From an uncultured Singulisphaera sp. (GTDB lineage: Bacteria; Planctomycetota; UBA1135; UBA2386), in assembly GCA_964514315.1 (NCBI GenBank), contig CAZEQF010000003.1:2916-39377 (forward strand): a DNA stretch of 36,462 nucleotides, written 5' to 3'. Below the pieces are notes generated by a model. It saw nothing but the letters and a program-made list of their open reading frames with translations. It made no database searches and was not told the origin of the DNA. Numbering within the stretch: the stretch's first letter is position 1; each line of letters starts with the position of its first letter. The position numbers and the translations under genes were made by a program. This document shows positions 6,166 through 33,286 of the stretch, in pieces.

Positions 6166-6175
6166 TCCCGGAGCC

Positions 6176-6907: not shown

Positions 6908-6909
6908 CC

Positions 6910-7920: not shown

Positions 7921-7923
7921 CCT

Positions 7924-9638: not shown

Positions 9639-9660
9639 CGAACCGCTCAGTAGCGGTTCG
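9639..9660. terminator. 9-bp hairpin between convergent genes (possible bidirectional terminator)
   Basis: CGAACCGCT-cagt-AGCGGTTCG is a perfect 9-bp stem with a 4-nt loop. It lies 12 nt after the M48 stop and overlaps the stop codon (9647-9649) of the minus-strand gene. No U-tract. Confidence 0.35.
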
Positions 9661-11929: not shown

Positions 11930-12057
11930 GGAGCAGGATCGCGGAAGGATCCTCGCCCTCGTCGGTCTTGGTGTCAGCAATCGAGTGCAGCGACGCGCAG
12001 GTTCGGTCCAGGAGAATGGTCCTGCGGACCTCGCCGCCTGTGCGCGGTTGACGTAGA

Positions 12058-14961
12058 TTGCGCATCGATCCCTCCCGGCGCGCGCGACGTTGGATCCTCG
12101 GGGTCGCCGACCGCCGCAGCCCGTCCGCAACCGGGCCGCTTCCTGACCCGCGACCGACCCTCTCCACCTTGCTCCGACCCGCCTCGATCGCACCGCACGC
12201 GTTGCTCGCGTTCGCCGTCGCGCTGTCGTGCGCACGGGCGCAGGCACAAGCCCAGGTGAAGGTGCAGGTGCGCGGCGGGATCGGAGCGATCAACGCCCCG
12301 GCCAAGGAAGAACCGGAGACCGGCGTGCCGGTCGAGATGTTCGAGAGCCCCAACCTCGATCGCTTCGTGCGCCGCGCGCGGCGGTTCCTCGACGAGGAGC
12401 GCTACGAGGATGCGATCGCAGTGCTGCAGTCCGTGGTCGAAGGGCGAACGCTCGAAGCGGAGCCGACGGACGGAGAAGCCCAGCCGACGCCGGAGCCCAA
12501 GCAGGCCGAAGTCGAGCCAGAGGCACAGGGCCAGGCCGGCGCCAACCAGAAGCCTCGTTCCGCGGCGCGCGTGCCAGGACGCGACCAACCGAAGAAGGAC
12601 GACAAGCAGAACGAGGGCCCAGTCGATCCGCGCAAGGCGGTGTTCTCCGTGGACGGCCGCCTCTACCGGCCCGCGGCACGGCTCTGCCAGGAATACCTCG
12701 CGCAGATGCCCGCGGTCGGCATCGAGCTCTACCAGGCGCGCTACGAGTCGCAGGCGGCGGCGCTGCTCGACGAGGCGCGGCGCACGGGGACGGCGCGCGA
12801 CTACGAACAGGTCGCGGTGCGCCACTTCCCGTCGCAGGCAGCGGGCCTCGCGTTGCAGTCGCTTGCCGACCTGCACATGCAGGCGGGCCGCTATCGCGCT
12901 GCGGTGCAGACGCTGCGCGACCTCGTCGGCGTCTATCCCAAGGCCAACCTGCAGCGACTCGGCATCTCGCCGTTGTGGTGCCGGTTCAAGATCGCGCTGT
13001 GCTTGCGATTGTCAGGCGACCTGCTCGGCGCGCGCGAAGCCGTGGAGCAACTGGCGAACGAGAACCCCGACGAGTCGCTGCGCGTGATGGGCGAACTGAC
13101 GCCCGTGCGCGACCTGCCGACGAGCCCGTGGTTTGCCGCGCCGGAGCCGATCGCGGTCGCGGGCAACGACGCGCGGCCGGTGAGTTGGTTGTCGTCGGGC
13201 GACGAGGCGCTGGTTCCGCTGTGGGTCTACCGCTTCGCGGGCAACGACCCCTACGAGCCCGTGCAGGGCAAGCGCGGCAACAACGAGATCTTCGTGTTCG
13301 GCGGGTCCGGCTCCGGATCGACGGCGTCGCCGCCCGCCACCAAGTACGGCGTCGGCACGCAGGTCGCGTTCTTCGGCGAACGTCACGGCCGCGCGGTGTT
13401 CCTCGAGAACTTCCGGCTGCGCATCGCCGAGTCGTTGACCGGCATCCTCGTGCGCGAAGGCGACGGCGAGGAGTTGCCGCCGAAGCCGCTCGAAGGTCGC
13501 CCGCGGCCGCGCGTGCCGGTCTACGACCTCGCGTTGATGACGCCGCTGGAGGACGAGGACCGTTACTACGCGGTCCTTGGCTACAACCGCGTGACGCAGT
13601 CGGCGGAGCCGCTCAAGAACAACTGGCTCGTCGCCTACGGCAAGGAAGGCGGTCCGCGTGTGTGGAGCACCGAGTCCTACGCCGAAGGCGAGGACGGATT
13701 CGACGACGTGACGTTCCTCGCGGCGCCGGTGCGCTTCGCCGAGACGTTGCTCGCGCCGGTGCTGCACAAGGGTGTCTACGCGCTGCAGTGCATCGATCGC
13801 GCGTCGGGCAAGCCGCTGTGGCGCACGCGCATCCACGCTGCGGGCACGCGCTACTTCAAGGCGCCGGGCGCGCGCGTGAAGACGCAAGGCAGCACGGCCT
13901 ACATGCTGACGAACGCGGGCGCATTCGCCGCGATCGACGCGTTCGCCGGCGACCTGCGTTGGATCCGCAAGTACGAACGCACCGACCCGCTGCGCGCGAA
14001 GCCCGCGAAGCGGAAGTCCGACGGCAACTCGAACCCGTTCGGCTTCTCCAACTCGTATGTCGAGTCCGATCTCCCCGGCGCGTTGCCGAGCGAGGTCTAC
14101 GAAGCCAACGGCGCACTGGTGTTCGCGCCGTGCGACAGCGACCTGTTGCTCTGCGTCGACGGCGCATCGGGCGAGCCGGTCTGGATGCTCGACGGCACGA
14201 CGCGCTACGCGCCCTACGGCAAGCTGCGCTATCTGATCGGCGTCGACGACGGCCTCTTGTTCTTCGAGGCGAGCAGCGACCTCCGCGACCATCTCGTCTG
14301 CGTCGAGGTTGCGACCGGCATCGTGCGCTGGTCGCGCGAGATCCCGCGTTCGACCGAACGGCTCACGCGCTGGCCCGGCCGCGGCTGCATCGCCGAAGGC
14401 CGCGTGCTGTTGCCCGGCGACCGTCGCGTGCACTCGATCGACGTGAAGGGCGAAGGCGCGTGGGAAGAGCGCTTGCTGCCGCCGTTCTCCGCGGGTGAAG
14501 AGCCGCTGCGCGGACCCAACAACCTGTTCGTGCGCGGCAGCTGGCTGTCGGTCTGCTACGCGCGCGGCATCGAGACCTACTCCACGGCTTCCGAACTCGC
14601 GCGGCTCGCGCAAGGCAGCGAAGACGTGGAAGCGCGCGCGCGCATCCTCGTGCAGGCCAGCCAGCTGCAGGACGCCCTCGATGCGCTCGTGCGCTCGCTG
14701 GGCGAACTTGGACCTGCCGGTGATCCCGTGATCGCCGAACGGCGCGCGCTGCAAGCAGTCGCGATCGCCCGCAGCCTCGCGTTGTCGACGCGCGATGCGC
14801 CGTTGGTGGCGCTCGACGCGATTGCGCCGTTCGTCACCGCGCCCAAGGCCAGGCTCGCATGGCTCCTCGCGCGGGTCGACGCAGTGCGCGCAGCCGGCGA
14901 CAGCGCGGCGACCGAACGCGAACAAGAGGCCCTCTACCGCACCATGGAAGGCAAGCAATGA
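12058..14961 (+). CDS. secreted TPR + PQQ-like (BamB-type) beta-propeller repeat protein
   Basis: TPR-like helices (ERYEDAIAVLQSVVEG; LADLHMQAGRYRAAVQTLRDLVGVYP). Repeated PQQ-like strand motifs: CIDRASGKPLWRTRI, AIDAFAGDLRWIRKYE, CVDGASGEPVWMLDG, CVEVATGIVRWSREI. The start is uncertain: TTG 12058 (track) or in-frame TTG 12169. The latter gives a clean signal peptide, MLRPASIAPHALLAFAVALSCARAQA. Confidence 0.8.
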   Translation: MRIDPSRRARRWILGVADRRSPSATGPLPDPRPTLSTLLRPASIAPHALLAFAVALSCARAQAQAQVKVQVRGGIGAINAPAKEEPETGVPVEMFESPNLDRFVRRARRFLDEERYEDAIAVLQSVVEGRTLEAEPTDGEAQPTPEPKQAEVEPEAQGQAGANQKPRSAARVPGRDQPKKDDKQNEGPVDPRKAVFSVDGRLYRPAARLCQEYLAQMPAVGIELYQARYESQAAALLDEARRTGTARDYEQVAVRHFPSQAAGLALQSLADLHMQAGRYRAAVQTLRDLVGVYPKANLQRLGISPLWCRFKIALCLRLSGDLLGAREAVEQLANENPDESLRVMGELTPVRDLPTSPWFAAPEPIAVAGNDARPVSWLSSGDEALVPLWVYRFAGNDPYEPVQGKRGNNEIFVFGGSGSGSTASPPATKYGVGTQVAFFGERHGRAVFLENFRLRIAESLTGILVREGDGEELPPKPLEGRPRPRVPVYDLALMTPLEDEDRYYAVLGYNRVTQSAEPLKNNWLVAYGKEGGPRVWSTESYAEGEDGFDDVTFLAAPVRFAETLLAPVLHKGVYALQCIDRASGKPLWRTRIHAAGTRYFKAPGARVKTQGSTAYMLTNAGAFAAIDAFAGDLRWIRKYERTDPLRAKPAKRKSDGNSNPFGFSNSYVESDLPGALPSEVYEANGALVFAPCDSDLLLCVDGASGEPVWMLDGTTRYAPYGKLRYLIGVDDGLLFFEASSDLRDHLVCVEVATGIVRWSREIPRSTERLTRWPGRGCIAEGRVLLPGDRRVHSIDVKGEGAWEERLLPPFSAGEEPLRGPNNLFVRGSWLSVCYARGIETYSTASELARLAQGSEDVEARARILVQASQLQDALDALVRSLGELGPAGDPVIAERRALQAVAIARSLALSTRDAPLVALDAIAPFVTAPKARLAWLLARVDAVRAAGDSAATEREQEALYRTMEGKQ

Positions 14962-16031
14962 ACGAGCAGCGCCCCTCCGTTCCCCTCTCGCGCTTCGCGG
15001 CCTCGTGGCTCTGCGCCATGGCGATGCTGTGCAGCGTCGACGCAACTGCGCAAGAACAGGTCGAGGTCCTTCCGCGCGGTGTCACGCGCGAGATGCAGTC
15101 CGCGGTGAAGAGCGGGCTGCAGTTCTTGAAGCGCAACCAGTCGCCGGACGGCTCTTGGCGCAGCGCCGGCGGCCACGGCACGTATCCCACCGCGATGACC
15201 GGCCTGGCCGGCATGGCGCTGGTCGCCTCGGGCTCGACGCCGACGCGCGGCCCGTACTGGCGCGAGATCCGCCAGTCGATGGACTACCTCGTCAAGCACG
15301 CGGATCCGCAGACCGGCGTCATCACCGAGATGTCGACCGAGAACCGCAACATGTACGGGCACGGCTTCTCGTTGCTCTACCTCGCGTCGGTCTACGGCAT
15401 GGAAGAGGACGCGCAACGGCAGCAGAAGCTGCACGGCGTGCTCACGCGCGCCGTGAAGCTGATCGAACGCGCGCAGTCGGGCGCTGGCGGTTGGATCTAC
15501 ACGCCGGACTCCGGCGGCGACGAGGGCAGCGTCACGGTCACGCAAGTGCAGGCTCTGCGCGCGTGCCGCATGGGCGGCATCATCGTCGACAAGAAGACGA
15601 TCGACCGCGCCGTCGACTACATCAAGAAGTGCCAGAACCCGGACGGCGGCATCAGCTACAGCCTCGGCTCGCGCGGCGCGAGCAGGCCGGCGATCAGCGC
15701 CGCGGGCGTCGCGGTGCTCTACAACGCAGGCGTCTACGACGACCAACCGTTCGTCGACAAGGCGATGAAGTACGTGATGAAGAACGTGAGCCCGACGACG
15801 GACTCGACGGGCCATCACTTCTACACGCAACTCTACTTTGCGCAGGCGCTCTACCAGCGCGGCGGCAAGGACTGGGACGACTACCTCGCCAAGATCGGCC
15901 CGTGGCTCGTTCGCACGCAGAAGAAGGACGGCTCGTGGGAAGGCGACGGCGTCGGCGCCATCTACGGCACTGCGATCGCGTTGACGATCCTGCAGCTGCC
16001 GTTCGCGCTGGTCCCGATCTACCAACGTTGA
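14958..16031 (+). CDS. secreted prenyltransferase/squalene-oxidase-repeat (alpha/alpha-toroid) protein
   Basis: ATG at 14958 overlaps the upstream stop (ATGA). Signal peptide ...WLCAMAMLCSVDATAQE. Repeated Q-x-x-DG-S/G-W motifs (NQSPDGSWRS, AQSGAGGWIY, CQNPDGGISY, TQKKDGSWEG). Confidence 0.8.
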   Translation: MNEQRPSVPLSRFAASWLCAMAMLCSVDATAQEQVEVLPRGVTREMQSAVKSGLQFLKRNQSPDGSWRSAGGHGTYPTAMTGLAGMALVASGSTPTRGPYWREIRQSMDYLVKHADPQTGVITEMSTENRNMYGHGFSLLYLASVYGMEEDAQRQQKLHGVLTRAVKLIERAQSGAGGWIYTPDSGGDEGSVTVTQVQALRACRMGGIIVDKKTIDRAVDYIKKCQNPDGGISYSLGSRGASRPAISAAGVAVLYNAGVYDDQPFVDKAMKYVMKNVSPTTDSTGHHFYTQLYFAQALYQRGGKDWDDYLAKIGPWLVRTQKKDGSWEGDGVGAIYGTAIALTILQLPFALVPIYQR

Positions 16032-16044
16032 GCCAAGGTCGGTG

Positions 16045-18309
16045 ATGCTCGCGCTGTCGTTCCTCAATCCGATGCTGCTCTGGGCCGTGCCGCTCGCGGC
16101 CGTGCCCATCGTCATCCATCTGCTCAACCGCCGCCGCTTCCGCGAAGTGCGTTGGGCCGCGATGGAGTACCTGCTCAAGGCGCTCGAACGGAACCGCAAG
16201 CGCTTGCGCATGGAGCAGTGGCTCGTGCTGCTGCTGCGCACGCTCGCAGTCATGCTGCTCGTGATGCTCGTGTCGCGTCCGCAACTCGGCGGCGGCATCA
16301 CGTCCACCGTGGCGCACCACGTCGTGCTGCTCGACGACACGGCGTCGATGCGTCAGCGCAGCGGCAGCGTGTCGCTGTTCGACAAGGCGCAGGACCAGGT
16401 TCGCACGCTGGCGCAGAAGCTCGCGGCTTTGCGCGGCGGCGACCTCGTCTCGATCGTCCGAGCGAGCAAGGTGAACGAGCCCGACCTGTGGGCGCAGCGC
16501 ATCGGCGAAGGAACCGAGCGCCGCATCGGCCAGCTGCTCGCGGAGCAACGCTGTGGCGACGGCACTGCGGACCTCGGCGCAGCGCTCGCAGCTGTGCGCA
16601 CGCGCGCGATCGCGACCAAGGAGTCGAGCCGCACCGACTACTACGTCGTCAGCGACCTGCGGTCGTGTGACTGGCTGTCGGACGACGGCAAGCCGCGTTC
16701 GACCGTCGTGCAGTTCCTCGCGCAGACGGATGCGTCGGTGGAGCACGTGCACGCGATGGGCATCGGTTCGCGCGACGCGGACAACCTCGCGGTCACCGCG
16801 GTGCGCTGCGTCGATCGCATGGCGATCGCGGGCGTTCCCGTCGAGCTCGCGGTCGACGTGCAGAACTTCGGCCTCGACGCGACGCAGGCCGGCGAGCTCT
16901 CGGTCGAGATGGACGGCAAGAGCCGCGTCACGCGGCCGCTGCCGCCGCTCGCGCCCGGCGAACGCGCGTCGATCCCGGTTGCGCACACGTTCTTCAACGG
17001 TGGCGACCATCGCGTCGAAGCGTCGTTCGCGCCGGTGGACCACTACCTCGTCGACGACCGTCGCACGCTCGCGTTGCCGGTGCAGTCCGCATCGCGCGTG
17101 CTGCTCGTCGACGGCGAACCCGACGACGGCAGCGAAGACGGCGGCGAGACGATGTTCCTGCAAGCGGCGCTCGATCCAGGCGGCGACCAGCCTTCGGGCG
17201 TCGCGGTCGAGGTCGTCGCGGAGACCGCGCTCGGCGAAGTGGACTTCGCGCCGTTCGACATGGTGTGGCTGTGCAATGCGCCCGCGCCGTCGCCGTCGAT
17301 CGTGGACAAGCTGGAGAAGTTCGTCGCCGCAGGCGGCGGGCTCGCGATCTTCCTCGGCGCGCAGGTCGATGCTGCCCGCTACGTCGAAACGATGTGGAAG
17401 GGCGGCAAAGGCTTGCTGCCGCTGCCGATCGGGGACATCGCCGGCGATCCCGATCGTCGCGAGCACGTCGTGCTCACGGACAAGGACCATCCGGTGTGCG
17501 GCAAGATCGGCGACGTGCTGCAGTTGCTCGTCGACAGCACGGTGCTCGTGAAGCGTTACCTCACGATCCAGGAAGAACCGTCGAGCGGCGCTGCAGTCGT
17601 CGCGCGCATGCGCGATGCAGACGGGCCGCCGGCGATCGTCACGCGCACGTTCGGCAGCGGCGGCGGTGAAGTCGTGCTGTTCGCATTCGCGGCGGACAAG
17701 CGTTGGTCCAACTGGCCCGACACCGACGTCAACGTCGTGATGGCGCATCAAGTGCATCGCTTCGCAAGCAAGCCGCGCGAACTCGCGAGCAAGAACCTCG
17801 ATCCGGCCGGCGTCTTCCGCCTCGCGCTCGATCCAGGCAGCTACCAGAACGACGTGCGCATCCTGGCGTTCGCGGAAGACGGCGAAGAACGCACGCTGAC
17901 GGCGCGCATCCCGGAAGCCGTGGCGACGACCGACGGCGCGAACGGCGCGAACGGCGCGACGCCTGCGTTGCCCGCGGCCCCGCAGACGTTGGAGCTCGTC
18001 GTGCCCATGTCCGAGTTGCACTCGCTCGGCGGCTACGAGGCGAAGCTGATGCTGCACTCGGGCGCCGAGGAGAGCCGCGTGTTCGCGCGCAATGTCGACG
18101 TCGGCGAGAGCCGGCTCGTGCGCATGTTGCCGCAGGACTTCGCGCGCGTGTTCCCGCAGGAACTGCACACGCGAGTGACATTCCTCGACGAAGGCGGCGG
18201 CCTGCTGCGCGGCGAGGGCGAAGGCGAGATGTGGCGACTGCTCGGCGTGGGCATGTTGCTCGCGCTGTTGCTCGAGACCCTCTTGGCCTGGAGGTTCGGC
18301 CGCCGCTAG
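16045..18309 (+). CDS. BatA_N (aerotolerance-regulator N-terminal double-TM) domain protein with vWA-like domain and C-terminal TM
   Basis: MLALSFLNPMLLWAVPLAAVPIVIHLLNRRRFREVRWAAMEYL plus a second TM (WLVLLLRTLAVMLLVMLV) is the BatA_N signature. D-x-T-x-S (VVLLDDTASM, 16333-16347). C-terminal TM MWRLLGVGMLLALLLETLLAW. AAGG lies 6 nt before the ATG. GTG 16042 is an alternative start. Confidence 0.8.
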   Translation: MLALSFLNPMLLWAVPLAAVPIVIHLLNRRRFREVRWAAMEYLLKALERNRKRLRMEQWLVLLLRTLAVMLLVMLVSRPQLGGGITSTVAHHVVLLDDTASMRQRSGSVSLFDKAQDQVRTLAQKLAALRGGDLVSIVRASKVNEPDLWAQRIGEGTERRIGQLLAEQRCGDGTADLGAALAAVRTRAIATKESSRTDYYVVSDLRSCDWLSDDGKPRSTVVQFLAQTDASVEHVHAMGIGSRDADNLAVTAVRCVDRMAIAGVPVELAVDVQNFGLDATQAGELSVEMDGKSRVTRPLPPLAPGERASIPVAHTFFNGGDHRVEASFAPVDHYLVDDRRTLALPVQSASRVLLVDGEPDDGSEDGGETMFLQAALDPGGDQPSGVAVEVVAETALGEVDFAPFDMVWLCNAPAPSPSIVDKLEKFVAAGGGLAIFLGAQVDAARYVETMWKGGKGLLPLPIGDIAGDPDRREHVVLTDKDHPVCGKIGDVLQLLVDSTVLVKRYLTIQEEPSSGAAVVARMRDADGPPAIVTRTFGSGGGEVVLFAFAADKRWSNWPDTDVNVVMAHQVHRFASKPRELASKNLDPAGVFRLALDPGSYQNDVRILAFAEDGEERTLTARIPEAVATTDGANGANGATPALPAAPQTLELVVPMSELHSLGGYEAKLMLHSGAEESRVFARNVDVGESRLVRMLPQDFARVFPQELHTRVTFLDEGGGLLRGEGEGEMWRLLGVGMLLALLLETLLAWRFGRR

Positions 18310-18326
18310 GCGACCGGGAGACGACC

Positions 18327-23122: not shown

Positions 23123-23132
23123 GGACCGAGCG

Positions 23133-25037: not shown

Positions 25038-25039
25038 CC

Positions 25040-26068
25040 ATGGCGCGCATGCACCAGATGTTCGCGGCGACCGCAGCCGCTTGGGTCCTGGCTCTCGCGT
25101 CGTCGCTGTGCGCGCAGGTTGAGCAAGACCCGCCCGCAGTCGTGCAGAGCCCGTTCACGCCGTTCGACCGCGTGGCCTACGAGGCGCGCGCGAAGAAGCT
25201 CGGCGCCACGGATGCGCAACTGCAGGCCTTCGCCCAAGACCTCGGCGAACTCGGCCCCGCGCGCGCCGGCGACAAGTTGATGCGCGCGCTGCGCCCTGCG
25301 TTCGACGCAGCGGCCAAGCTCAGCGAAGACGGCGCTCCGAAGGCGGCGCTCGCGCTCGCGCAGTTCGCGGCCGCGGAGACCGACGCTGCGCTCGGCGCGC
25401 ATGCGCGCTACCACCTCGCGCGCGTCTTCCTCGACGGCGACGACCCGGAGCGCGCGGTCGAGATCCTCAACGACTACCTCAAGGCCAACATCAACTGCTC
25501 GCCGCTCGACGGCGAGGCGGCGTTCTTCTACGCGCAGGCGTTGGCCGAGATCCCGATGCCCGACCTCGCGTTGCCGCGGCTGCGCGCGTTCTTGGAGTGG
25601 TTTCCGGATGCGAGCGAACGGTTCCGCGCGACGGCACAGCAGCGCATCGGCGAGCTGGAGACGCAGAAGGAGAGTCGACTGCACAACCTCGCGGACCGCA
25701 TGAAGAAGGTCTCGCGCGACCTGAAGAAGCAGAAGACGAACGACCCGATCCAGGTCGAGCAGAAGGAGATGACCGAGGAGCTGCAGGAGCTCATCGAGAT
25801 GTACGAGGAGCAGGAGCAGCAGTCGTCGGGACCGCCGAACGGCAACGGCCCTTCGAACACGCCCGCGAACCAGAGCTCGCTCACCGAGGGCGAAGGCCGC
25901 ATCGGCAACCTGGAGAAGCGCGTGAGCCTCAACGACCGCTGGGGCGACATGAAGGACAAGGACCGCAAGGAGATCGAGTCCGCGGTCCAGAACAACCTGC
26001 CTCCGCAGTACCGCAAGCTGCTCGAGGAGTACTACAAGAAGCTCGGCACGGGCGGCGACAAGAAGTGA
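25040..26068 (+). CDS. secreted TPR-like protein with acidic linker and conserved-looking C-terminal PPQYRKLLEEYYKKL tail
   Basis: AGGAGGA ends 9 nt before ATG 25040. The track start GTG 25034 would be only 3 nt from the SD. Signal peptide MARMHQMFAATAAAWVLALASSLCAQ. Helical repeats (ARYHLARVFLDGDDPERAVEILNDYL). Confidence 0.7.
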   Translation: MARMHQMFAATAAAWVLALASSLCAQVEQDPPAVVQSPFTPFDRVAYEARAKKLGATDAQLQAFAQDLGELGPARAGDKLMRALRPAFDAAAKLSEDGAPKAALALAQFAAAETDAALGAHARYHLARVFLDGDDPERAVEILNDYLKANINCSPLDGEAAFFYAQALAEIPMPDLALPRLRAFLEWFPDASERFRATAQQRIGELETQKESRLHNLADRMKKVSRDLKKQKTNDPIQVEQKEMTEELQELIEMYEEQEQQSSGPPNGNGPSNTPANQSSLTEGEGRIGNLEKRVSLNDRWGDMKDKDRKEIESAVQNNLPPQYRKLLEEYYKKLGTGGDKK

Positions 26069-26073
26069 ACGCC

Positions 26074-27426
26074 ATGCACGTCGCAACGAACCTTGATGCG
26101 GGCGTGTCGAGCGTCGCATGCAGCGACGGGACGCCGCATGCGTACGCGGCATCGCGCCGCCGCTGCGTCGCGGCGCGCAGCAGGCGAGACTTGGCCGGGA
26201 GCAACCTCCGTGTCCTGGCTCGCGCCGCGTGCTGCGCGTTCGCGTTGGCAGTCTCCGCGTCCGCGCAGGCGCCCGAGGCAAGCGTCGCGACGATCGACGG
26301 CCGTTCGCTGCGCGGCGCCGTGTCGTTCGACGGCACGTCGCTCACCGTTGCCGGCGCGTCGATGTCGCTCGGCGATGCGTTGTCGATCCGCTTCGACGAA
26401 GCGGCGCTCGAGCCCGCGAAGTCCGCGCCCTACAGCGTGTGGCTGCGTTCGGGCTCGATCGTGCCGTGCACGCGCATCGACGGCATCGCGGCGAAGGACG
26501 GCGCACCTCCTACGCTGGTCGCGATCGGCGCGTCGGGCTGCGAAGTGAAGATGCCGCTGTCGACCGTCGCTGCGTTGCGCAGTCGCGCCAACGATCCGCA
26601 GACCTTCGTCGCGGACCGCGCGGCGCCGGACGAGAACCTCGATTTCCTCTACGTCGTCAAGAACGGCGAGCCGCAGCGCTTCTCGGTGCTCGTCGACACG
26701 ATCGACCAAGGCGTCGCGCGCTTCGACTTGCGCGGTTCGCAATACGAGTTCGCGTTGCACGGCGACGACAGCGTTGCGGCGATCGTGTTCGGCAAGAACA
26801 CGGGCTTCGCGCCGGATCGCGCCACGGGCTCTCGCTGCCAGGTGTCGTTGACGGGCGGCGAGTCGCTCGGCGGCGCGTTGCTCTCGATCGCGGACGGCAC
26901 GCTGCGAATGCGGCTCGACGAGGGATCGGAGCTCACCGCAAGCCTGTCGCGCGTGCGCGCGATCGACGTCGCGAGCGACAAGGTCGCGTGGCTGTCGGCG
27001 CTGCAGCCGAAGGTCGAGCAGACCGCGGCCTTCGATCGCGTCTGGCCGTGGACCGTGGATCGAAGCCCAGCGGGCGCCGGCATCCGCGTGCACGGCGTGA
27101 CCTATGCGCGCGGCCTCGTGCTCGTGCCGAAGACGCGGCTCACGTTCGACCTCGGCGGCAAGTTCGGCCGGTTCGAGTGCGTGGCAGGGCTCGACGAACG
27201 AAGTGGACCACTTGCGCATGCCGTGTTGCGCGTGGTCGCCGACGGCAAGGTCGTCTGGGAAGCGACGCAGGACGGAGCGAAGGCGGCGCCACATGCGCTG
27301 CGCCTCGCGATCGCGGGCTGCAAGCAGCTCTCGCTCGAAGCGGACTTCGGCGAGAACTTCGACCTCGGCGATCTCTGCGCGTTCGCGGACGCGCGTGTGC
27401 TGGTGACCGACGAGGCCAACAAGTGA
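26074..27426 (+). CDS. secreted protein with four ~45-aa beta-modules and a C-terminal NPCBM/NEW2-like domain
   Basis: 3' part of track ORF 25597-27426. The C-terminus WLSALQP...HGVTYARGLVLVPKTRLTFDLGGKFGRFECVAGLDE...LRVVADGKVVWE...LSLEADFGENFDLGDLCAFADARVL follows the NPCBM pattern (YxxGLxxH..S.i.y.L.G.y.rF...vGvDD...V.F.V..DG...L.L....DhadWadA). Start is ATG 26074 or in-frame TTG 26191. The latter gives the signal peptide MAGSNLRVLARAACCAFALAVSASAQA. Confidence 0.7.
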   Translation: MHVATNLDAGVSSVACSDGTPHAYAASRRRCVAARSRRDLAGSNLRVLARAACCAFALAVSASAQAPEASVATIDGRSLRGAVSFDGTSLTVAGASMSLGDALSIRFDEAALEPAKSAPYSVWLRSGSIVPCTRIDGIAAKDGAPPTLVAIGASGCEVKMPLSTVAALRSRANDPQTFVADRAAPDENLDFLYVVKNGEPQRFSVLVDTIDQGVARFDLRGSQYEFALHGDDSVAAIVFGKNTGFAPDRATGSRCQVSLTGGESLGGALLSIADGTLRMRLDEGSELTASLSRVRAIDVASDKVAWLSALQPKVEQTAAFDRVWPWTVDRSPAGAGIRVHGVTYARGLVLVPKTRLTFDLGGKFGRFECVAGLDERSGPLAHAVLRVVADGKVVWEATQDGAKAAPHALRLAIAGCKQLSLEADFGENFDLGDLCAFADARVLVTDEANK

Positions 27427-27436
27427 GGAACGTCGC

Positions 27437-29263
27437 ATGATCGCGCGCTGCGTGCCTTCGGTTCTCGTGCTGTCCGCAGCGCTCGCGCAAGGTCCCGACC
27501 TCGCGTCGGTGCGAGCTGCCGAAGCGCGCCGCGTCGAGGCGATCGCGCAGTGCGCGCCCGCCGTCTGCTCGGTGATGGACCGCAGCGCGCCGGGCGGCGG
27601 CAGCGGCGTGATCTTCGATCCGCGCGGCTACGTGCTGACGAACTACCACGTCATCGGCGCGCCCGACACCAACGCGAAGGTCGACAAGAACGAAGTGCTG
27701 CCCGCGCCGCCGGAGCCGCCAGCAGACGTGGTCGCCAAGTGGCGCGCCGACAACGCAGCGGCCGATGACGCGGCGCAGAAGGCGTTCGTGGTCGCGTGGC
27801 AGGACGAGTGGAAGAAGCAGAACTGGCCCGTCGGCAAGCAGCACTGGCGCAACAAGAAGGTCGGCTTGCCGGACGGCGAGCTCTACGAAGCGGTGGTGCT
27901 CGGCGTCGATCCCGGCAGTGACCTCGCAGTGTTGCGGCTCGTCGGCAAGACCGAAGGCCAGCAGTGGCCGTGGCGCCCGCTCGGCGACTCCGACGCGCTG
28001 CTCGTCGGGCAGACCGTGTTCGCGATGGGCAACCCGTTCCTGCTCGCGACCGACTTCACGCCGACGGTCACGTTCGGCGTCGTGTCCGGCACGCATCGCT
28101 ACCAGGAAGGCCAAGGCAACCGGATGCTCGTCTATCCGGACTGCATCCAGGTCGATGCGCCGATCAATCCAGGCAACTCCGGCGGCCCGTTGTTCAACGA
28201 GGCAGGCGAAGTCGTCGGCATCAACGGCCGCATCTCGCTCGGCGACCGCGGCCGCGTGAACGTCGGCGTCGGCTTCGCGATCGCGAGCAACCAGGTGCGC
28301 AACTTCCTGCCCGATCTGATGGCCGGCCGTCATGCAGAACACGGCACGCTCGACATGAGCGCGTGGTTCATGAAGGCGAAGACGGGCTCCGAAGACCGGC
28401 ACGGCGTGTTCGTGCAACAGCTGTTCAAGGACTCGGTCGCGGCGCTCGCTGGCATCGCGCTCGGCGACGAGATCGTGCGATTCGACGGCGAGGACGTGCG
28501 TTCGGCCAACCAGCTCGCGTCGCGCATCGGCGTGTTGCCCGCCGGATCATGGGTCGAGGTCGGGTACCGATCGGTCGACGAGAACAACACGTTCGGCCCG
28601 CCTCGCTACGCGGACATCAAGCTGGCGCCGCTCGACACGGGCAGCAGCATCGACGCGCGCGCCGACGGCGAACGGCTCGCCAGCCCGGTCGAACGACGCA
28701 TCGCGACCAAGGCGCTGCGCGCGACGCTCGCTTCGCGATGGCAGGAGAACGACCGGCGGCAGCCTTCGCGCACCGTGACCTTCGCGCTCGTCGACGCAAG
28801 CGGAGCCACCTGGTCGCTCGTGCGCGACCTGCAACATAGTTCAATCCGCATCGAGCAAGGCGGGCGCGTGATCGTCGACGCGCCTTCTCTCGACGCGTTG
28901 CCCGCCGACGACGCCGCGCTCGCGCAACGCCACATCCGCTGCAACCCGTTCGCGTGGATCGGCTGCGACTTCGGCGAGCGACTCGATGAAGGGCTCCTGG
29001 TCGGAGGCGCGCGCGTGCTCGGCAAGCCCGCGTATCGCTTCGCGTTCCCTGGCGACGGCGAGCTCGAGGCGCTGATCTTCGAGGACGGCGCGCCCGCGGG
29101 CTTCGCGATGCGCGATCCGGTCCGCAAGCAGAAGGTCGAGTTCCACTGCGACGGCGCACAGGCGCGTTGGATCCTCGACGGCCAGTGCGTCCGCGGCTGG
29201 AAGGTCGTGGACTCGAAGCACGACACGGACATCGACCGATCGTCGTTCCGGAGGCCGCAATGA
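27437..29263 (+). CDS. HtrA/DegP-family (S1C) serine protease with PDZ domain and long C-terminal extension
   Basis: GAGGAA lies 6 nt upstream of the ATG. Signal peptide. Catalytic triad contexts are YVLTNYHVIG (His), GSDLAVLRL (Asp) and INPGNSGGPLF (Ser codon 28178-28180). PDZ region GVFVQQLFKDSVAALAGIALGDEIVRFDGEDV. Confidence 0.85.
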   Translation: MIARCVPSVLVLSAALAQGPDLASVRAAEARRVEAIAQCAPAVCSVMDRSAPGGGSGVIFDPRGYVLTNYHVIGAPDTNAKVDKNEVLPAPPEPPADVVAKWRADNAAADDAAQKAFVVAWQDEWKKQNWPVGKQHWRNKKVGLPDGELYEAVVLGVDPGSDLAVLRLVGKTEGQQWPWRPLGDSDALLVGQTVFAMGNPFLLATDFTPTVTFGVVSGTHRYQEGQGNRMLVYPDCIQVDAPINPGNSGGPLFNEAGEVVGINGRISLGDRGRVNVGVGFAIASNQVRNFLPDLMAGRHAEHGTLDMSAWFMKAKTGSEDRHGVFVQQLFKDSVAALAGIALGDEIVRFDGEDVRSANQLASRIGVLPAGSWVEVGYRSVDENNTFGPPRYADIKLAPLDTGSSIDARADGERLASPVERRIATKALRATLASRWQENDRRQPSRTVTFALVDASGATWSLVRDLQHSSIRIEQGGRVIVDAPSLDALPADDAALAQRHIRCNPFAWIGCDFGERLDEGLLVGGARVLGKPAYRFAFPGDGELEALIFEDGAPAGFAMRDPVRKQKVEFHCDGAQARWILDGQCVRGWKVVDSKHDTDIDRSSFRRPQ

Positions 29264-30318
29264 AGCTCGTGCTCCTCGGTCTAGGTTTCGCGGCGTCGCT
29301 GGTTGCGCAGGAACCCGTCGCGCCGCAGCCGCCGGTGTCGCTGCGCGAAGCCGCCGCGTTCGCCGAGCGCGAGCCGCAGACGCAGGTCGAGAACGCGATC
29401 GAGCGGCTGTTGCCGAGCATCGTCAAGGTGCAGGGCGCTTCGGGCTTCTCGACGATCGTCCCGTATGCGGCCGGCGTCGTCGTCAGCGACCGCGGCCACA
29501 TCCTCACGCTCGACCAGGTGCTCGTGCAGAAGGGCAGCACGCGCGTCGTGCTCTACGACGGCACGGTGCTCGACGCGCAGTTGCTGCCCGAAGATCCCAA
29601 GCTCGGCGTGCGGCTCCTTCGCGTCGATCCGGAGGCGTGCAAGGGCAAGCTGCGCCCCGTGTGGCCGGACGAGCAGGGGCCTGCGTTCCGCACGGGCCAG
29701 TTCGTCGTGTCGATCGGCAACTGCTTCCGGCTCGCGGAGTTCTCGGAGAAGTCGTCGGCGACGTTCGGCGTCGTGGTGGGCAAGGCCAGCACCGCGCTGC
29801 GCTTTCGCCTCACGGACGTCGCCTACGACGGCGAACTGATCCTCACCGACGCGTGCAACAACCCCGGCCACTACGGCGGCGGGTTGTTCTCGCTCGACGG
29901 TCGTTGGCTCGGCCTCAACACGCGGTTGTTGGAGAGCAAGGAGACCAACACGATGCTGTCGGCGGCGATCCCGTCGCGCGATCTCCTGCCGTATCTGAAG
30001 GAGCACATCCTCGGCGAGGCGCGCGAAGAGGTCGTCGTCGAACGCAAGCCCGTGCGCACCGGCATCGTGCTGTTCCGCCAGGCGGGCCGCACCTCGCCGC
30101 CTGCCTACGTCGATCGCATCGAACGCGATTCTCCGGCTTCGTCGCTGGGCCTGCGCCCCGACGACCTGATCGTGCGCATCGGCGAGTTCTCCGTTCGCAC
30201 GTGCAAGGAGTTCGACGCGGCTCTGGAGCGGTTCGTGCCCGGCCAGAAGGTCACGCTGACGTGGAAGCGCGGAACGAGCGTGATGCAAGGCGAGGTCGAG
30301 CTCGCAGCGAAGGACTGA
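29260..30318 (+). CDS. HtrA-like pseudoprotease with PDZ domain (catalytic triad lost)
   Basis: ATG 29260 overlaps the upstream stop (ATGA). Signal peptide MKLVLLGLGFAASLVAQE. Trypsin-fold and PDZ regions are colinear with the upstream HtrA. The triad positions read GHILTLDQVL (Gln, 29515-29517), PKLGVRLLRV (Gly) and NNPGHYGGGLF (Tyr, 29872-29874). Confidence 0.8.
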   Translation: MKLVLLGLGFAASLVAQEPVAPQPPVSLREAAAFAEREPQTQVENAIERLLPSIVKVQGASGFSTIVPYAAGVVVSDRGHILTLDQVLVQKGSTRVVLYDGTVLDAQLLPEDPKLGVRLLRVDPEACKGKLRPVWPDEQGPAFRTGQFVVSIGNCFRLAEFSEKSSATFGVVVGKASTALRFRLTDVAYDGELILTDACNNPGHYGGGLFSLDGRWLGLNTRLLESKETNTMLSAAIPSRDLLPYLKEHILGEAREEVVVERKPVRTGIVLFRQAGRTSPPAYVDRIERDSPASSLGLRPDDLIVRIGEFSVRTCKEFDAALERFVPGQKVTLTWKRGTSVMQGEVELAAKD

Positions 30319-30353
30319 CACGCGCGATCCGTGTGGCCCCCGCCCGGAACGAC

Positions 30354-30390
30354 GCGGACGCCAGAGCCTGCGAGGAGGCTCGGCGTCCGC
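30354..30390. terminator. GC-rich hairpin between convergent genes (candidate bidirectional intrinsic terminator)
   Basis: GCGGACGCC-a-GAGCC-tgcgagga-GGCTC-GGCGTCCGC has 14 paired positions with one bulge and an 8-nt loop. It lies 36 nt after the stop at 30318 and 31 nt before the minus-gene stop at 30421. No U-tract. Confidence 0.5.
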
Positions 30391-30420
30391 GACGAGAAGT
30401 GACGGTTCGTCGCGTGTCGA

Positions 30421-32553: not shown

Positions 32554-32667
32554 GGCGGTTGGCGAACTTGTTGGGTTGTGGTTCTTGGGCGCCGCCGAAG
32601 GGCGCCTCTGCCCGCACATCCCCGCGGCCCTCCCGGCGTGACGCGGTGTCGTGGTATTTTTCGCGCC

Positions 32668-33258: not shown

Positions 33259-33286
33259 TCGCAGCAGCTCGCGCGAGTATCGAGCG

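What the first reader, a model, noticed from the sequence alone, without database searches (positions are those of the whole stretch)
12058..30318. Ten-gene, ~18 kb translationally coupled envelope operon built on BatA_N/vWA-MIDAS proteins with no MoxR/DUF58 in the window: candidate undescribed trans-envelope system
Seen in sequence:
- Ten same-strand ORFs. Junctions are either 4-nt ATGA overlaps (14958, 20837, 29260) or gaps of 2-17 nt.
- Several junctions have clear SD boxes: GGGAG before 18327, GAGGA before 23133, AGGAGGA before 25040, GAGGAA before 27437.
- The unit is closed by the hairpin at 30354-30390.
- Every product carries a signal peptide or TM anchors.
- Domain order: (1) TPR + PQQ-like propeller; (2) prenyltransferase-type alpha/alpha toroid; (3) BatA_N double-TM + DxTxS vWA-like; (4) TM + DxSxS MIDAS vWA + large ectodomain + C-terminal TM; (5) 761-aa multi-TM protein; (6) 634-aa coiled coil; (7) TPR-like protein with a PPQYRKLLEEYYKKL tail; (8) four beta-modules + NPCBM-like domain; (9) HtrA; (10) dead HtrA.

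Established knowledge: BatA_N/vWA membrane proteins normally lie downstream of a MoxR AAA+ ATPase and a DUF58 protein (the Bacteroides bat operon and related clusters). The molecular function of those clusters is still unclear.

Inference: here the ATPase module is absent. The vWA pair is instead embedded with a propeller, a toroid, a glycan-binding-type domain, long coiled coils and a protease/pseudoprotease pair. This suggests a self-contained envelope scaffold or adhesion/maturation machine. I do not recognise it as a described system.
Basis: partly seen in the sequence, partly recalled or inferred. Interest (0 to 1): 0.8.

Follow-up and report, generated by a model that had tools for sequence, protein, structure and literature searches.

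The report
Bat-type envelope operon lacking its ATPase
This is a real ten-gene operon, conserved in an uncultured group of Planctomycetota, that is an enlarged version of the widespread but poorly understood MoxR/DUF58/BatA/vWA/DUF4175 cell-envelope gene cluster from which the two cytoplasmic genes (the MoxR ATPase and DUF58) have gone, so it is an unusual variant of a known kind and not a new system.

Summary
There are ten co-directional genes at 12058-30318 with three ATGA overlaps and gaps of 2-17 nt. Most of the domain calls are confirmed, and there is no MoxR or DUF58 anywhere in the 36 kb window.

The same ten genes are colinear in 37 fetched loci (36 distinct genomes) of Planctomycetota MAGs, down to 39% identity for g5. 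None of those loci has MoxR or DUF58 within about 10 kb of the central gene.

The cluster is not a previously unseen kind of system. More distant relatives carry MoxR and DUF58 exactly between the toroid gene and the BatA gene: L002, a Phycisphaerae MAG, and L065, which also has the NPCBM gene and the HtrA pair. L067 has them at the head of the cluster. The canonical core DUF4159-MoxR-DUF58-BatA-DUF4175 is seen in L066. Gene 5 is homologous to the N-terminal 500 residues of a Pfam-positive DUF4175 protein (hhalign 99.8%). The tail of gene 7 matches that protein's extreme C-terminus.

The best reading is a lineage-specific, expanded Bat/DUF4175-type apparatus, anchored in the inner membrane and facing the periplasm, whose ATPase pair was lost from the locus. 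I could not test whether MoxR/DUF58 survive elsewhere in these genomes. The function of the whole class remains unresolved.

Novelty: new variant of a known kind. Interest: moderate.

The parts
9647..11929 (-). Divergent neighbour 'upASST': a secreted protein with HEAT and an arylsulfotransferase-like beta-propeller. It is probably an associated eleventh component.
   Evidence: Pfam gives Arylsulfotran_2 3e-10 and weak HEAT_2. The likely start is ATG 11929, with the signal peptide MMRSSMNRPARWLLISMLAATAAATANA. A homolog sits in the same divergent position in every related locus that has enough upstream flank (27 distinct loci). In L068 a related protein lies co-directionally just upstream of the g4-like gene.
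12058..14961 (+). g1: secreted protein with TPR and a PQQ-like (BamB-type) beta-propeller. Its start is uncertain (12058, 12169 or 12202).
   Evidence: PQQ_2 7e-12, TPR_6 2e-5. Median identity to the clade is 43%. A PQQ_2 gene is also present in the MoxR-containing relatives L002 and L067.
14958..16031 (+). g2: secreted single alpha/alpha toroid of the squalene-hopene-cyclase/prenyltransferase type. It is probably non-catalytic.
   Evidence: SQHop_cyclase_C 7e-14. PDB hits are to squalene-hopene-cyclase toroids, best 7.5e-9. It has four QW-like repeats, no CxEQ thioester motif and no conserved DxDD motif. It is tied with g10 as the most conserved gene (median identity 66%). It is tandemly duplicated in a subclade.
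16042..18309 (+). g3: BatA-type inner-membrane protein. It has an N-terminal double-TM domain, a periplasmic MIDAS vWA domain, a CARDB Ig-like domain, a further ectodomain and a C-terminal TM helix.
   Evidence: BatA 1e-17, TIGR02226 1e-20, VWA_2 1e-4, CARDB 4e-4. TM segments lie at 10-28, 60-78 and 730-748. The MIDAS motif is DDTAS here and DDSAS in most orthologs. The BatA_N region is the most conserved part of the protein.
18327..20840 (+). g4: second inner-membrane vWA/MIDAS protein with the same topology as g3 (two N-terminal TM helices, a large periplasmic part, a C-terminal TM helix).
   Evidence: No Pfam hit. DTSQS (DxSxS) is conserved in orthologs. A family profile hits PDB vWA domains 4rck and 5a8j at 1e-3 and the integrin alpha-M I-domain, and hits GATase1-like proteins at 0.2-0.3. 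The AlphaFold model (pLDDT 80) shows an alpha/beta domain at 85-275, a beta-sandwich, a second alpha/beta domain at 383-660, another beta-sandwich, and a TM helix at 814-834.
20837..23122 (+). g5: DUF4175-like protein with three TM helices, three periplasmic beta-sandwich domains and a C-terminal helical bundle.
   Evidence: hhalign of the family against the Pfam-positive DUF4175 protein P0082 gives 99.8% probability, E 2e-29, over 484 columns. blastp to P0080 gives 1e-24. The AlphaFold model has pLDDT 85. Foldseek returns generic MG/Ig-like arrays with TM-score 0.2 or less.
23133..25037 (+). g6: secreted protein rich in Lys, Glu and Gln, probably coiled coil. It corresponds to the low-complexity middle part of long DUF4175 proteins.
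   Evidence: An N-terminal hydrophobic segment lies at 5-23. It gives only weak Rad50/SMC-type coiled-coil hits. blastp to P0080 residues 928-1231 gives 2e-5. It is conserved in position in all related loci.
25040..26068 (+). g7: secreted TPR-like protein with a charged linker and a conserved C-terminal tail, LPPxYRkmLEeYYkkLG.
   Evidence: TPR_16 8e-4. The tail is conserved in alignment A4. The tail matches the extreme C-terminus of the DUF4175 protein P0082, APPEYRAMVEEYYRSL (hhalign 75% probability, E 3e-5, 21 columns). The family comprises 882 representative clusters, mostly stand-alone proteins of about 350 aa.
26074..27426 (+). g8: secreted protein with a C-terminal NPCBM/NEW2 (glycan-binding type) domain.
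   Evidence: NPCBM 1e-21 at residues 305-442. An NPCBM gene occupies the same position in L001, L002, L065 and L069.
27437..29263 (+). g9: HtrA/DegP-family serine protease with one PDZ domain and a C-terminal extension of about 220 aa.
   Evidence: Trypsin_2 2e-32, TIGR02037 3e-61. The His, Asp and Ser motifs (TNYHV, DLAV, GNSGGP) are conserved in 46 of 46 orthologs.
29260..30318 (+). g10: a conserved HtrA pseudoprotease (trypsin fold plus PDZ, all three catalytic residues replaced).
   Evidence: Trypsin_2 7e-16, PDZ_2 2e-7. Ser is replaced by Tyr, Phe, Gln or Glu (GHYGGG), His by Gln (TLDQV), and the Asp motif is lost, in every true ortholog. It is more conserved than the active g9 (median identity 66% against 55%).
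30351..30393 (.). GC-rich hairpin between the end of g10 and the convergent gene 30421-33507(-). It is a possible bidirectional terminator.
   Evidence: Sequence GCGGACGCC-AGAGCCT...AGGCTC-GGCGTCCGC. The fold has z = -3.7. It has no U-tract and was not found by the terminator scan.

Best explanation
**What it is.** The locus is a lineage-specific, expanded descendant of the widespread MoxR-DUF58-BatA(TIGR02226)-vWA-DUF4175 ('Bat-like') envelope cluster. In this uncultured Planctomycetota clade the two cytoplasmic genes (the MoxR AAA+ ATPase and DUF58) have been removed from the locus, while all membrane and periplasmic components were kept and remain tightly coupled.

**Shown here.** Homology and synteny with MoxR-containing clusters, the domain content, and the conservation.

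**Inferred architecture.**
- g3 and g4 are staple-like inner-membrane proteins: two N-terminal TM helices, a C-terminal TM helix, and a large ectodomain. They present intact MIDAS vWA domains to the periplasm.
- g5 (3 TM helices, three beta-sandwiches, a helical bundle), g6 (coiled coil) and g7 (TPR plus conserved tail) together are the equivalent of one long DUF4175 protein. They form an elongated periplasmic stalk or scaffold.
- The MIDAS sites bind acidic residues of these partners in a metal-dependent way.
- The NPCBM protein (g8) ties the assembly to a glycan of the wall or outer layers. The propeller/TPR protein (g1), the toroid (g2) and probably the divergently encoded propeller add further periplasmic or outer-membrane contacts.
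- The active HtrA (g9), paired with a conserved pseudo-HtrA (g10), matures or quality-controls the assembly.

**Likely role.** Maintenance or stress tolerance of the cell envelope, as suggested for other Bat/MoxR-vWA clusters.

**On the ATPase.** The cytoplasmic ATPase step is most likely still supplied in trans by MoxR/DUF58 encoded elsewhere, but this was not tested.
For: **Conserved order.** The ten-gene order is colinear in 37 loci and is kept at 39% g5 identity.

**MoxR/DUF58 in relatives.**
- L002 and L065 have MoxR and DUF58 between the g2 and g3 homologs.
- L067 has MoxR-DUF58-BatA-VWA-PQQ-toroid-g5-like.
- L066 has the canonical core DUF4159-MoxR-DUF58-BatA-DUF4175.

**Link to DUF4175.**
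- g5 is homologous to the N-terminal 500 aa of the DUF4175 protein P0082 (hhalign 99.8%).
- g6 matches the coiled middle part of P0080 (2e-5).
- The g7 tail matches the P0082 C-terminus.

**vWA and topology.**
- The BatA/TIGR02226 hits are strong.
- MIDAS motifs are conserved in g3 and g4.
- A positive-inside reading of the TM segments puts the ectodomains in the periplasm. This agrees with the experimentally determined periplasmic vWA domain of the BatA-like protein BB0173 (PMC5700661).
- The cytoplasmic BatA_N loop is the most conserved part of g3. The C-terminal cytoplasmic motif of g4 (LEWLLRKRFNLL) is shared with the MoxR-linked relatives L002 and L065.

**Proteases.** The g9 catalytic triad is kept in 46 of 46 orthologs. 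g10 has lost all three catalytic residues yet is more conserved than g9.

**Literature.** In Rhodobacter sphaeroides, a TIGR02302 (DUF4175-type) gene and a MoxR gene are listed in the paper's table of CenR binding-motif genes; the paper is about the CenKR system that regulates cell division and envelope biosynthesis (PMC9275681).
Against: - No experiment exists for any member of this cluster.
- The function of Bat-type clusters is itself unresolved. Deleting all bat genes in Leptospira biflexa gave no phenotype (PMC3557215).
- No complex was modelled, so all subunit contacts are inference.
- g4, g5, g6 and g7 get no significant Pfam hit of their own (only sub-threshold TPR matches for g7). Their assignment is transitive.
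- The HtrA pair and the NPCBM gene are missing from some MoxR-containing relatives (L002 lacks HtrA; L067 lacks both). They may therefore be later add-ons and not core parts.
- I could not show that MoxR/DUF58 exist elsewhere in these genomes. The MoxR search was swamped by Phycisphaerae sequences.
- Across g5, conservation does not clearly single out the cytoplasmic parts.
Confidence: 0.6

Rival explanations
1. This is an autonomous machine that needs no ATPase. In this clade the periplasmic module has become independent of any MoxR/DUF58 partner. Assembly or remodelling is driven on the periplasmic side, for example by the HtrA/pseudo-HtrA pair acting as an ATP-independent chaperone-protease.
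For: There is no MoxR or DUF58 in the 36 kb window. None lies within about 10 kb of g5 in about 60 related loci. That state is old, since it is kept down to 39% identity. The whole clade has the HtrA pair, and some members add a third HtrA-like gene.
Against: L065 has both MoxR/DUF58 and the HtrA pair, so HtrA did not simply replace the ATPase. The cytoplasm-facing BatA_N loop and the C-terminal cytoplasmic motifs of g3 and g4 stay highly conserved and are shared with MoxR-linked relatives, which suggests a cytoplasmic partner persists. Planctomycete genomes usually hold several MoxR genes (my own knowledge, not tested here).
Confidence: 0.2
2. This is a co-transcribed mosaic and not one machine. 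It would be a Bat/DUF4175 core (g3-g7) that has accreted functionally separate envelope genes (propeller, toroid, NPCBM protein, HtrA stress proteases), which share only a promoter and a compartment.
For: Gene content and order vary among distant relatives. There is no HtrA in L002, no NPCBM or HtrA in L067, and PQQ and the toroid lie after the vWA genes in L067. L068 shows only propeller - vWA - g5-like.
Against: PQQ-propeller and toroid genes recur with the core in three differently arranged clusters (L002, L067 and the window clade); L065 shows only the toroid. Recurrence under rearrangement is the classic sign of a functional link. The ten genes are colinear, with overlapping or nearly abutting junctions, in 37 loci. 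The pseudoprotease g10 and the toroid g2 are the most conserved genes of the set.
Confidence: 0.15
3. This is an alpha-2-macroglobulin-like protease trap, or a glycan-processing system. The idea comes from MG-like beta-sandwiches (g5), a toroid similar to the thioester (TED) domain (g2), the NPCBM domain (g8) and glycoside-hydrolase-like fold hits for g4.
For: Foldseek places the g5 beta-sandwich region on the MG arrays of complement C3 and A2M (E 1e-7). g2 gives a weak TED_complement hit (0.0024). The whole-chain fold search of g4 lists GH2 and GH3 enzymes. NPCBM domains are typical of glycosidases.
Against: TM-scores are only 0.1-0.2, which means generic Ig-like or alpha/beta similarity. Neither g2 nor g5 has a CxEQ thioester motif, and g2 carries QW repeats of the cyclase/prenyltransferase type. 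No glycoside hydrolase catalytic domain is found by Pfam in any of the ten proteins. No PADLOC defence family matches, apart from a generic trypsin-fold hit.
Confidence: 0.05

Closest known systems
Bat (Bacteroides aerotolerance) operons and related MoxR-DUF58-vWA clusters: B. fragilis batA-E, Leptospira bat genes, the Borrelia genes around BB0172/BB0173, the Riemerella anatipestifer bat operon
   Same: They share the BatA_N double-TM domain fused to a periplasmic MIDAS vWA domain, a second paralogous vWA membrane protein, TPR partners, an envelope location, and a tightly packed operon. The topology predicted here matches the periplasmic vWA domain shown experimentally for BB0173 (PMC5700661).
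   Different: Here MoxR and DUF58 are missing from the locus. The vWA proteins are much larger (755-837 aa, with extra Ig-like and GATase1-like domains and a C-terminal TM helix). The cluster also carries DUF4175-like, coiled-coil, NPCBM, propeller, toroid and HtrA genes that classical bat operons lack.
The (DUF4159)-MoxR-DUF58-BatA-DUF4175 core cluster, as in L066, and its planctomycete elaborations L002, L065 and L067
   Same: g3, g4 and g5 are homologous to the corresponding genes, and g6, g7 and g8 too in L002 and L065. The PQQ-propeller and toroid genes are present in L002 and L067 and the toroid in L065. The gene order from the BatA gene onward is the same.
   Different: There is no MoxR or DUF58. 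The DUF4175 function is spread over three genes (g5, g6, g7) instead of one protein of about 1170 aa. An HtrA plus pseudo-HtrA pair is fixed at the 3' end, which among these relatives is shared only with L065.
AdvA of Acinetobacter baumannii (an essential cell-division protein with a DUF4175 domain)
   Same: The paper describes a DUF4175 domain and two predicted TM helices near the N-terminus (PMC7481262). g5 has comparable N-terminal TM helices followed by a conserved region.
   Different: I did not test direct similarity between g5 and AdvA. AdvA is described there as a cell-division protein, and the passages I read say nothing about a vWA/BatA cluster. Its relevance is only that a DUF4175-type membrane protein can have an envelope or division role.
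MamE/MamO of magnetotactic bacteria and other pairs of active and inactive HtrA proteins
   Same: g9 and g10 give weak NCBIfam hits to MamE and MamO. From my own knowledge, MamO is a degenerate HtrA-family protease that acts together with the active MamE, which is the same logic of an active protease paired with a pseudoprotease.
   Different: The scores are far below the family cut-offs (112 bits and 34 bits for g9, 30 bits for g10, against a cut-off of 800). There is no magnetosome context. The resemblance is in mode of working only, not in membership.

Membership tests
MoxR-DUF58-BatA-vWA ('Bat-like') gene cluster | A MoxR-family AAA+ ATPase gene (PF07726/PF20030) in the cluster | tested here: not met
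   There is no AAA_3/bpMoxR hit in any large ORF of the window. tblastn with the L002 MoxR finds nothing in the window or in about 60 clade loci.
MoxR-DUF58-BatA-vWA ('Bat-like') gene cluster | A DUF58 (PF01882) gene next to MoxR | tested here: not met
   There is no DUF58 hit in the window. tblastn with the L002 DUF58 hits only L002 and L065.
MoxR-DUF58-BatA-vWA ('Bat-like') gene cluster | A membrane protein with the BatA_N / TIGR02226 double-TM domain | tested here: met
   g3 gives PF07584 at 1.2e-17 (64.5 bits, cut-off 25.9) and TIGR02226 at 1.2e-20 (73.6 bits, cut-off 23.05).
MoxR-DUF58-BatA-vWA ('Bat-like') gene cluster | vWA domains with a MIDAS motif (DxSxS) | tested here: met
   g3 has DDTAS (DDSAS in orthologs) and a VWA_2 hit at 1.3e-4, below the gathering score. 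g4 has a conserved DTSQS motif and profile hits to PDB vWA domains at 1e-3. The sequence-model support for g4 is weak; the motif and the AlphaFold model are consistent with a vWA domain.
MoxR-DUF58-BatA-vWA ('Bat-like') gene cluster | Orthology and synteny with clusters that do contain MoxR and DUF58 | tested here: met
   L002, L065 and L067 hold homologs of g2-g8 (and of g9-g10 in L065), with MoxR and DUF58 inserted between g2 and g3 or placed at the head of the cluster.
DUF4175 (PF13779) / TIGR02302 proteins | A direct match to the family model | tested here: not met
   g5, g6 and g7 match neither PF13779 nor TIGR02302, even at E up to 10.
DUF4175 (PF13779) / TIGR02302 proteins | Homology to a protein that passes the family model | tested here: met
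   The g5 family against P0082 (PF13779 at 6e-12, 44.8 bits, cut-off 27.3) gives hhalign 99.8%, E 2e-29, over 484 columns. The g7 tail matches the P0082 C-terminus with 75% probability.
HtrA/DegP serine proteases | Trypsin fold plus PDZ domain plus an intact His-Asp-Ser triad | tested here: met
   This row is for g9: Trypsin_2 2e-32, a PDZ domain, and the triad motifs kept in 46 of 46 orthologs. It scores below the TIGR02037 cut-off (208 bits against 416), so it is a divergent member.
HtrA/DegP serine proteases | An intact catalytic triad (for g10) | tested here: not met
   g10 keeps the fold (Trypsin_2 7e-16, PDZ_2 2e-7), but Ser, His and Asp are all replaced in every true ortholog. It is a pseudoprotease.
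NPCBM/NEW2 domain proteins | A match to PF08305 above the gathering score | tested here: met
   g8 residues 305-442 score 77.9 bits against a cut-off of 23.9. Glycan binding itself cannot be tested with these tools.
Class II terpene cyclases (squalene-hopene cyclase) | A two-domain beta-gamma toroid of about 630 aa with the catalytic DxDD motif | tested here: not met
   g2 is a single toroid of 357 aa with a signal peptide. Its only D.DD string (DWDD) is not conserved in orthologs (DWRD in L061). Scores are far below the family cut-offs.
Alpha-2-macroglobulin / complement C3-like thioester proteins | A CxEQ thioester motif in the TED toroid, covalently linked to MG domains | tested here: not met
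   Neither g2 nor g5 has a CxEQ motif. The toroid and the beta-sandwich protein are separate genes. Foldseek TM-scores are 0.2 or less.
Known anti-phage defence systems (including vWA-MoxR conflict systems) | A match to PADLOC models | tested here: not met
   The only hit is a generic trypsin-fold match of g9 to RT-Protease_XI (6e-8). The other nine proteins match nothing.

The most novel reading that the evidence does not exclude
In this clade the periplasmic Bat/DUF4175 apparatus truly works with no AAA+ partner. That would make it a natural, ATPase-free, eleven-component scaffold spanning the periplasm: two MIDAS staples, a three-gene split DUF4175 stalk, a lectin-like subunit, two propellers, a toroid, and a protease/pseudoprotease pair. 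Such a scaffold might be specialised for the unusual planctomycete envelope. It would show that the membrane module of MoxR-vWA clusters is a machine in its own right, and not merely a substrate of the chaperone.
Probability: 0.2. Interest if true: 0.65.

Novelty: new variant of a known kind. Interest (0 to 1): 0.45.

Why it matters
MoxR-DUF58-BatA-vWA-DUF4175 clusters occur in many bacterial phyla. Since the first bat operon was described in 1999, nobody has established what they do. One open point is what the cytoplasmic AAA+ pair has to do with vWA domains that face the periplasm.

This clade offers a natural experiment. Every membrane and periplasmic part is kept, expanded and tightly coupled across dozens of species, while the ATPase pair has left the locus. 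It also defines a larger, repeatedly co-occurring parts list that could guide interaction modelling and genetics in tractable planctomycetes: a propeller, a toroid, an NPCBM protein, an HtrA and a conserved pseudo-HtrA, and a DUF4175 split into three genes.

The finding does not reveal a new kind of system, and all the organisms are uncultured, so its immediate impact is moderate.

Tried and rejected
1. **Search for MoxR elsewhere in clade genomes.** I ran the search for homologous proteins with the L002 MoxR, hoping to spot hits on the 8.07, 7.19 or 6.59 Mb chromosomes. All 8000 scored candidates had E <= 1e-30, and the 120 listed were Phycisphaerae-type MoxRs.
2. **First genome scan.** The scan with the diverse alignment A1 failed because no conserved stretch was found. 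It was repeated with the closer set A2.
3. **Direct Pfam/NCBIfam scans of g4-g7 at E up to 10.** No DUF4175, VWA or TIGR02302 hit appeared.
4. **Whole-chain Foldseek of the g4 and g5 models.** Only generic multi-domain matches came back, with TM-scores of 0.1-0.2. I rejected these as evidence for a glycosidase or alpha-2-macroglobulin function.
5. **Sequence searches of g3 and g8 against the PDB.** Nothing was found.
6. **Look-up of the window's own g6 protein in the assembly index, to extend the context.** It is not on record.
7. **Other scans.**
   - Rfam scan of the window: no family.
   - PADLOC: no defence system.
   - Promoter scan of 11400-30800: none. Terminator-like sites are no more frequent than in shuffles.
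8. **Test of whether the cytoplasmic segments of g5 are more conserved than its periplasmic domains.** There is no clear difference, so I do not use that argument for g5.
9. **Literature searches for this cluster in Planctomycetota.** No paper was found.

Full report
**Observation**

The window has 68% G+C, so raw ORF lists are full of spurious frames. Codon-position GC picks out one clear series of + strand genes between 12058 and 30318, with GC3 of 0.82-0.89 and GC2 near 0.5.

The ten genes are:

| Gene | Coordinates |
|---|---|
| g1 | 12058-14961 |
| g2 | 14958-16031 |
| g3 | 16042-18309 |
| g4 | 18327-20840 |
| g5 | 20837-23122 |
| g6 | 23133-25037 |
| g7 | 25040-26068 |
| g8 | 26074-27426 |
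| g9 | 27437-29263 |
| g10 | 29260-30318 |

ATGA overlaps lie at 14958, 20837 and 29260, and the remaining gaps are 10, 17, 10, 2, 5 and 10 nt.

A 16-bp GC-rich hairpin lies at about 30351-30393, between g10 and a convergent gene (z = -3.7). It has no U-tract, and the terminator scan did not report it.

The start of g1 is uncertain. The divergent upstream gene most likely starts at ATG 11929, where it has a classic signal peptide. That leaves an intergenic region whether g1 starts at 12058, 12169 or 12202. An ortholog of g1 is called at 904 aa.

**Domain content**

- g1: PQQ_2 plus weak TPR.
- g2: a squalene-hopene-cyclase/prenyltransferase-type toroid.
- g3: BatA/TIGR02226, a sub-threshold VWA_2 hit, and CARDB.
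- g8: a C-terminal NPCBM domain.
- g9: Trypsin_2 plus PDZ.
- g10: Trypsin_2 plus PDZ.

g4, g5 and g6 have no Pfam hit, and g7 has only a weak TPR hit.

For g4:
- The DxSxS MIDAS motif is conserved across orthologs.
- A family profile reaches PDB vWA domains only marginally. 4rck and 5a8j score 1e-3 and the integrin alpha-M I-domain 0.03-0.1. GATase1-like proteins score 0.2-0.3 further along the chain.
- The AlphaFold model (pLDDT 80) shows this order of elements:
  - two N-terminal TM helices;
  - an alpha/beta domain;
  - a beta-sandwich;
  - a second alpha/beta domain;
  - a beta-sandwich;
  - a C-terminal TM helix.

For g5, the AlphaFold model (pLDDT 85) shows a TM hairpin, a helical segment, a third TM helix, three beta-sandwich domains and a long helical bundle.

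The flanks of the window encode unrelated functions, and there is no MoxR or DUF58:
- Upstream: a peptidase MA, a Bor-like protein, a beta-CASP nuclease, DapF, LemA, an unknown protein, an M48 peptidase, and an arylsulfotransferase-like propeller on the - strand.
- Downstream: a beta-lactamase-like protein and a Ser/Thr kinase, both on the - strand.

**Conservation**

A protein search with g5 found 82 relatives, all from Planctomycetota metagenomes. A scan of one genome per species returned 63 loci. All are MAGs and nearly all are labelled Planctomycetota.

tblastn of the ten products against these loci shows the full colinear set in 37 loci, including two copies of one 8.07 Mb chromosome. The set is kept down to 39% identity for g5. 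Junctions are also short or overlapping in the orthologs, although my start-codon choices there are rough.

The divergent propeller gene is present upstream in every locus with enough flank. The downstream neighbour is never conserved. This defines the unit as g1-g10 plus, probably, the divergent gene.

A subclade has a tandem duplicate of g2. Some members add a third HtrA-like gene after g10.

None of these loci has MoxR or DUF58.

**What it is related to**

The decisive result is the gene content of more distant homologs:
- **L002**, a Phycisphaerae MAG (g5 identity 26%): PQQ_2 - toroid - MoxR - (GIY-YIG) - DUF58 - (PDDEXK) - BatA/VWA - 888 aa - g5-like - 744 aa - 393 aa - NPCBM.
- **L065**: toroid - MoxR (68% identical to the L002 MoxR) - DUF58 - g3 ... 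g10, including the HtrA pair.
- **L067**: MoxR - DUF58 - BatA/VWA - VWA - PQQ_2 - toroid - g5-like - 1039 aa.
- **L066**, reached through the Pfam-positive DUF4175 protein P0082: the canonical core DUF4159 - MoxR - DUF58 - BatA/VWA - DUF4175 - TPR.

The link to DUF4175 is as follows:
- The g5 family aligns to residues 14-501 of P0082 with hhalign probability 99.8% and E 2e-29.
- g6 matches the coiled, low-complexity part of the long protein P0080 (2e-5).
- The conserved tail of g7 (LPPxYRkmLEeYYkkLG) matches the last 21 residues of P0082, APPEYRAMVEEYYRSLARKKP (hhalign 75%, E 3e-5).
- g5, g6 and g7 therefore look like one DUF4175-type protein distributed over three genes. The g6 and g7 links are weak. 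g7-like proteins are mostly stand-alone across 882 representative clusters.

The parsimonious history is an ancestral MoxR-DUF58-BatA-vWA-DUF4175 cluster that was elaborated in Planctomycetota with propeller, toroid, NPCBM and HtrA genes. The ATPase pair was then deleted or relocated at the base of the clade to which this window belongs.

**How it most likely works**

Shown by the sequences:
- Both vWA proteins keep full MIDAS motifs.
- g9 keeps its catalytic triad in 46 of 46 orthologs. g10 has lost His, Asp and Ser in every true ortholog, yet it is more conserved than g9.
- g2 lacks cyclase and thioester motifs.

Inferred:
- Charge distribution around the TM segments puts the large parts of g3, g4 and g5 in the periplasm. 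This agrees with the experimentally mapped periplasmic vWA domain of the BatA-like protein BB0173 (PMC5700661).
- I therefore favour an inner-membrane-anchored periplasmic assembly with these roles:
  - two MIDAS 'staples' bind, through metal ions, the acidic coiled-coil and TPR proteins that together with g5 form a DUF4175-like stalk;
  - the NPCBM subunit and the propeller and toroid proteins make contacts with glycans or outer layers;
  - the HtrA/pseudo-HtrA pair matures or polices the complex.
- The strongly conserved cytoplasmic BatA_N loop of g3, and the C-terminal cytoplasmic motifs shared with MoxR-linked relatives, suggest a cytoplasmic partner still exists. Hence I expect that MoxR/DUF58 act in trans.

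An envelope-maintenance role is suggested only by analogy:
- bat operons are linked to stress tolerance in some species (PMC11834572);
- bat genes gave no phenotype when deleted in Leptospira (PMC3557215);
- a DUF4175-domain protein is an essential division factor in Acinetobacter (PMC7481262);
- TIGR02302 and MoxR genes are listed in the table of CenR binding-motif genes in Rhodobacter sphaeroides, in a paper on regulation of cell division and envelope biosynthesis (PMC9275681).

**Rivals**

- **A truly ATPase-independent machine (0.2).** It fits the long-standing absence of MoxR from the locus. It is weakened by L065, which has both MoxR and the HtrA pair, and by the conserved cytoplasmic motifs.
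- **A co-transcribed mosaic of independent modules (0.15).** It fits the variable content of distant relatives. It is countered by the recurrence of the propeller and toroid genes with the core in differently ordered clusters, and by strict colinearity in 37 loci.
- **A macroglobulin-like trap or a glycan-processing system (0.05).** It rests on fold hits with TM-scores of 0.1-0.2 and fails its motif tests.
- **A defence system.** PADLOC gives no support for this.

**Comparison and novelty**

The cluster works like, and descends from, the Bat/MoxR-vWA-DUF4175 class. It fails two defining features of that class, because MoxR and DUF58 are not in the cluster. It adds six or seven genes that classical bat operons lack.

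I found no publication describing it. I rate it a new variant of a known kind.

Its value is as a natural dissection of a widespread, unexplained system, and as an extended parts list. It is limited by the absence of cultured hosts and by the untested question of a MoxR acting in trans.

Interest is 0.45. The most novel reading still open, a genuinely ATPase-free periplasmic machine, has a probability of about 0.2 and an interest of about 0.65 if true.

Noticed in passing
window 9647-11929 (-): A secreted protein with HEAT and an arylsulfotransferase-like beta-propeller is encoded divergently from g1. It is conserved in that position in every related locus with enough flank. In L068 a similar protein lies co-directionally just upstream of a g4-like gene. 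It may be an eleventh component of the system.
   Followed up: partly
L061 4051-5151; L012 4058-5107; L069 6638-7726: A subclade carries a tandem duplicate of the toroid gene g2 between g2 and g3. This is exactly the position where MoxR and DUF58 sit in distant relatives.
   Followed up: partly
L001 19237-20463; L069 21858-end: Some clade members have a third HtrA-like gene (Trypsin_2 plus PDZ) directly after g10. The window has the hairpin and a convergent gene there instead.
   Followed up: no
window 29260-30318 versus 27437-29263: The pseudoprotease g10 (all three catalytic residues lost) is more conserved across the clade than the active protease g9 (median identity 66% against 55%). The toroid g2 is equally conserved (66%).
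   Followed up: partly
window 16321-16335 (g3 residues 94-98 region): The MIDAS motif of g3 reads DDTAS in this window. Nearly all of the 52 aligned sequences (which include the window) have the canonical DDSAS; apart from the window only one other listed variant shows the Thr.
   Followed up: yes
L002 2892-3185 and 4402-4872: In the Phycisphaerae relative, small GIY-YIG and PDDEXK_3 genes are inserted between MoxR, DUF58 and BatA. They look like selfish nuclease insertions inside the operon.
   Followed up: no
window 5152-9627 (+): Upstream of the propeller gene lies a co-directional trio: LemA, an unknown 537-aa protein, and an M48-like peptidase of 567 aa. It may be a separate envelope module. 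I could not check its conservation because the related loci do not reach that far.
   Followed up: no
window 28600-29260 (g9 residues about 390-608): The active HtrA carries a C-terminal extension of about 220 residues after its single PDZ domain. The extension has no family match.
   Followed up: no
L045 (JBERSB010000504.1) and several loci labelled Brocadiaceae or Kuenenia: A 4 kb contig with g5 and g6 homologs is filed under a Luminiphilus (gammaproteobacterial) MAG. Several clade MAGs carry anammox-family labels. These look like binning or labelling artefacts and not real taxonomic spread.
   Followed up: no
L065 (CAWJNN010000054.1): Several cluster genes in this locus appear broken into overlapping ORFs (for example 9764-10666 and 10446-12137). 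This suggests indel errors in the assembly and not real pseudogenes.
   Followed up: no
P0348, P0363, P0396: A few g7 relatives are the C-terminal part of proteins of 656-694 aa. These may be fusions with a g6-like coiled coil, which would fit the idea that g5, g6 and g7 are pieces of one DUF4175-type protein.
   Followed up: no
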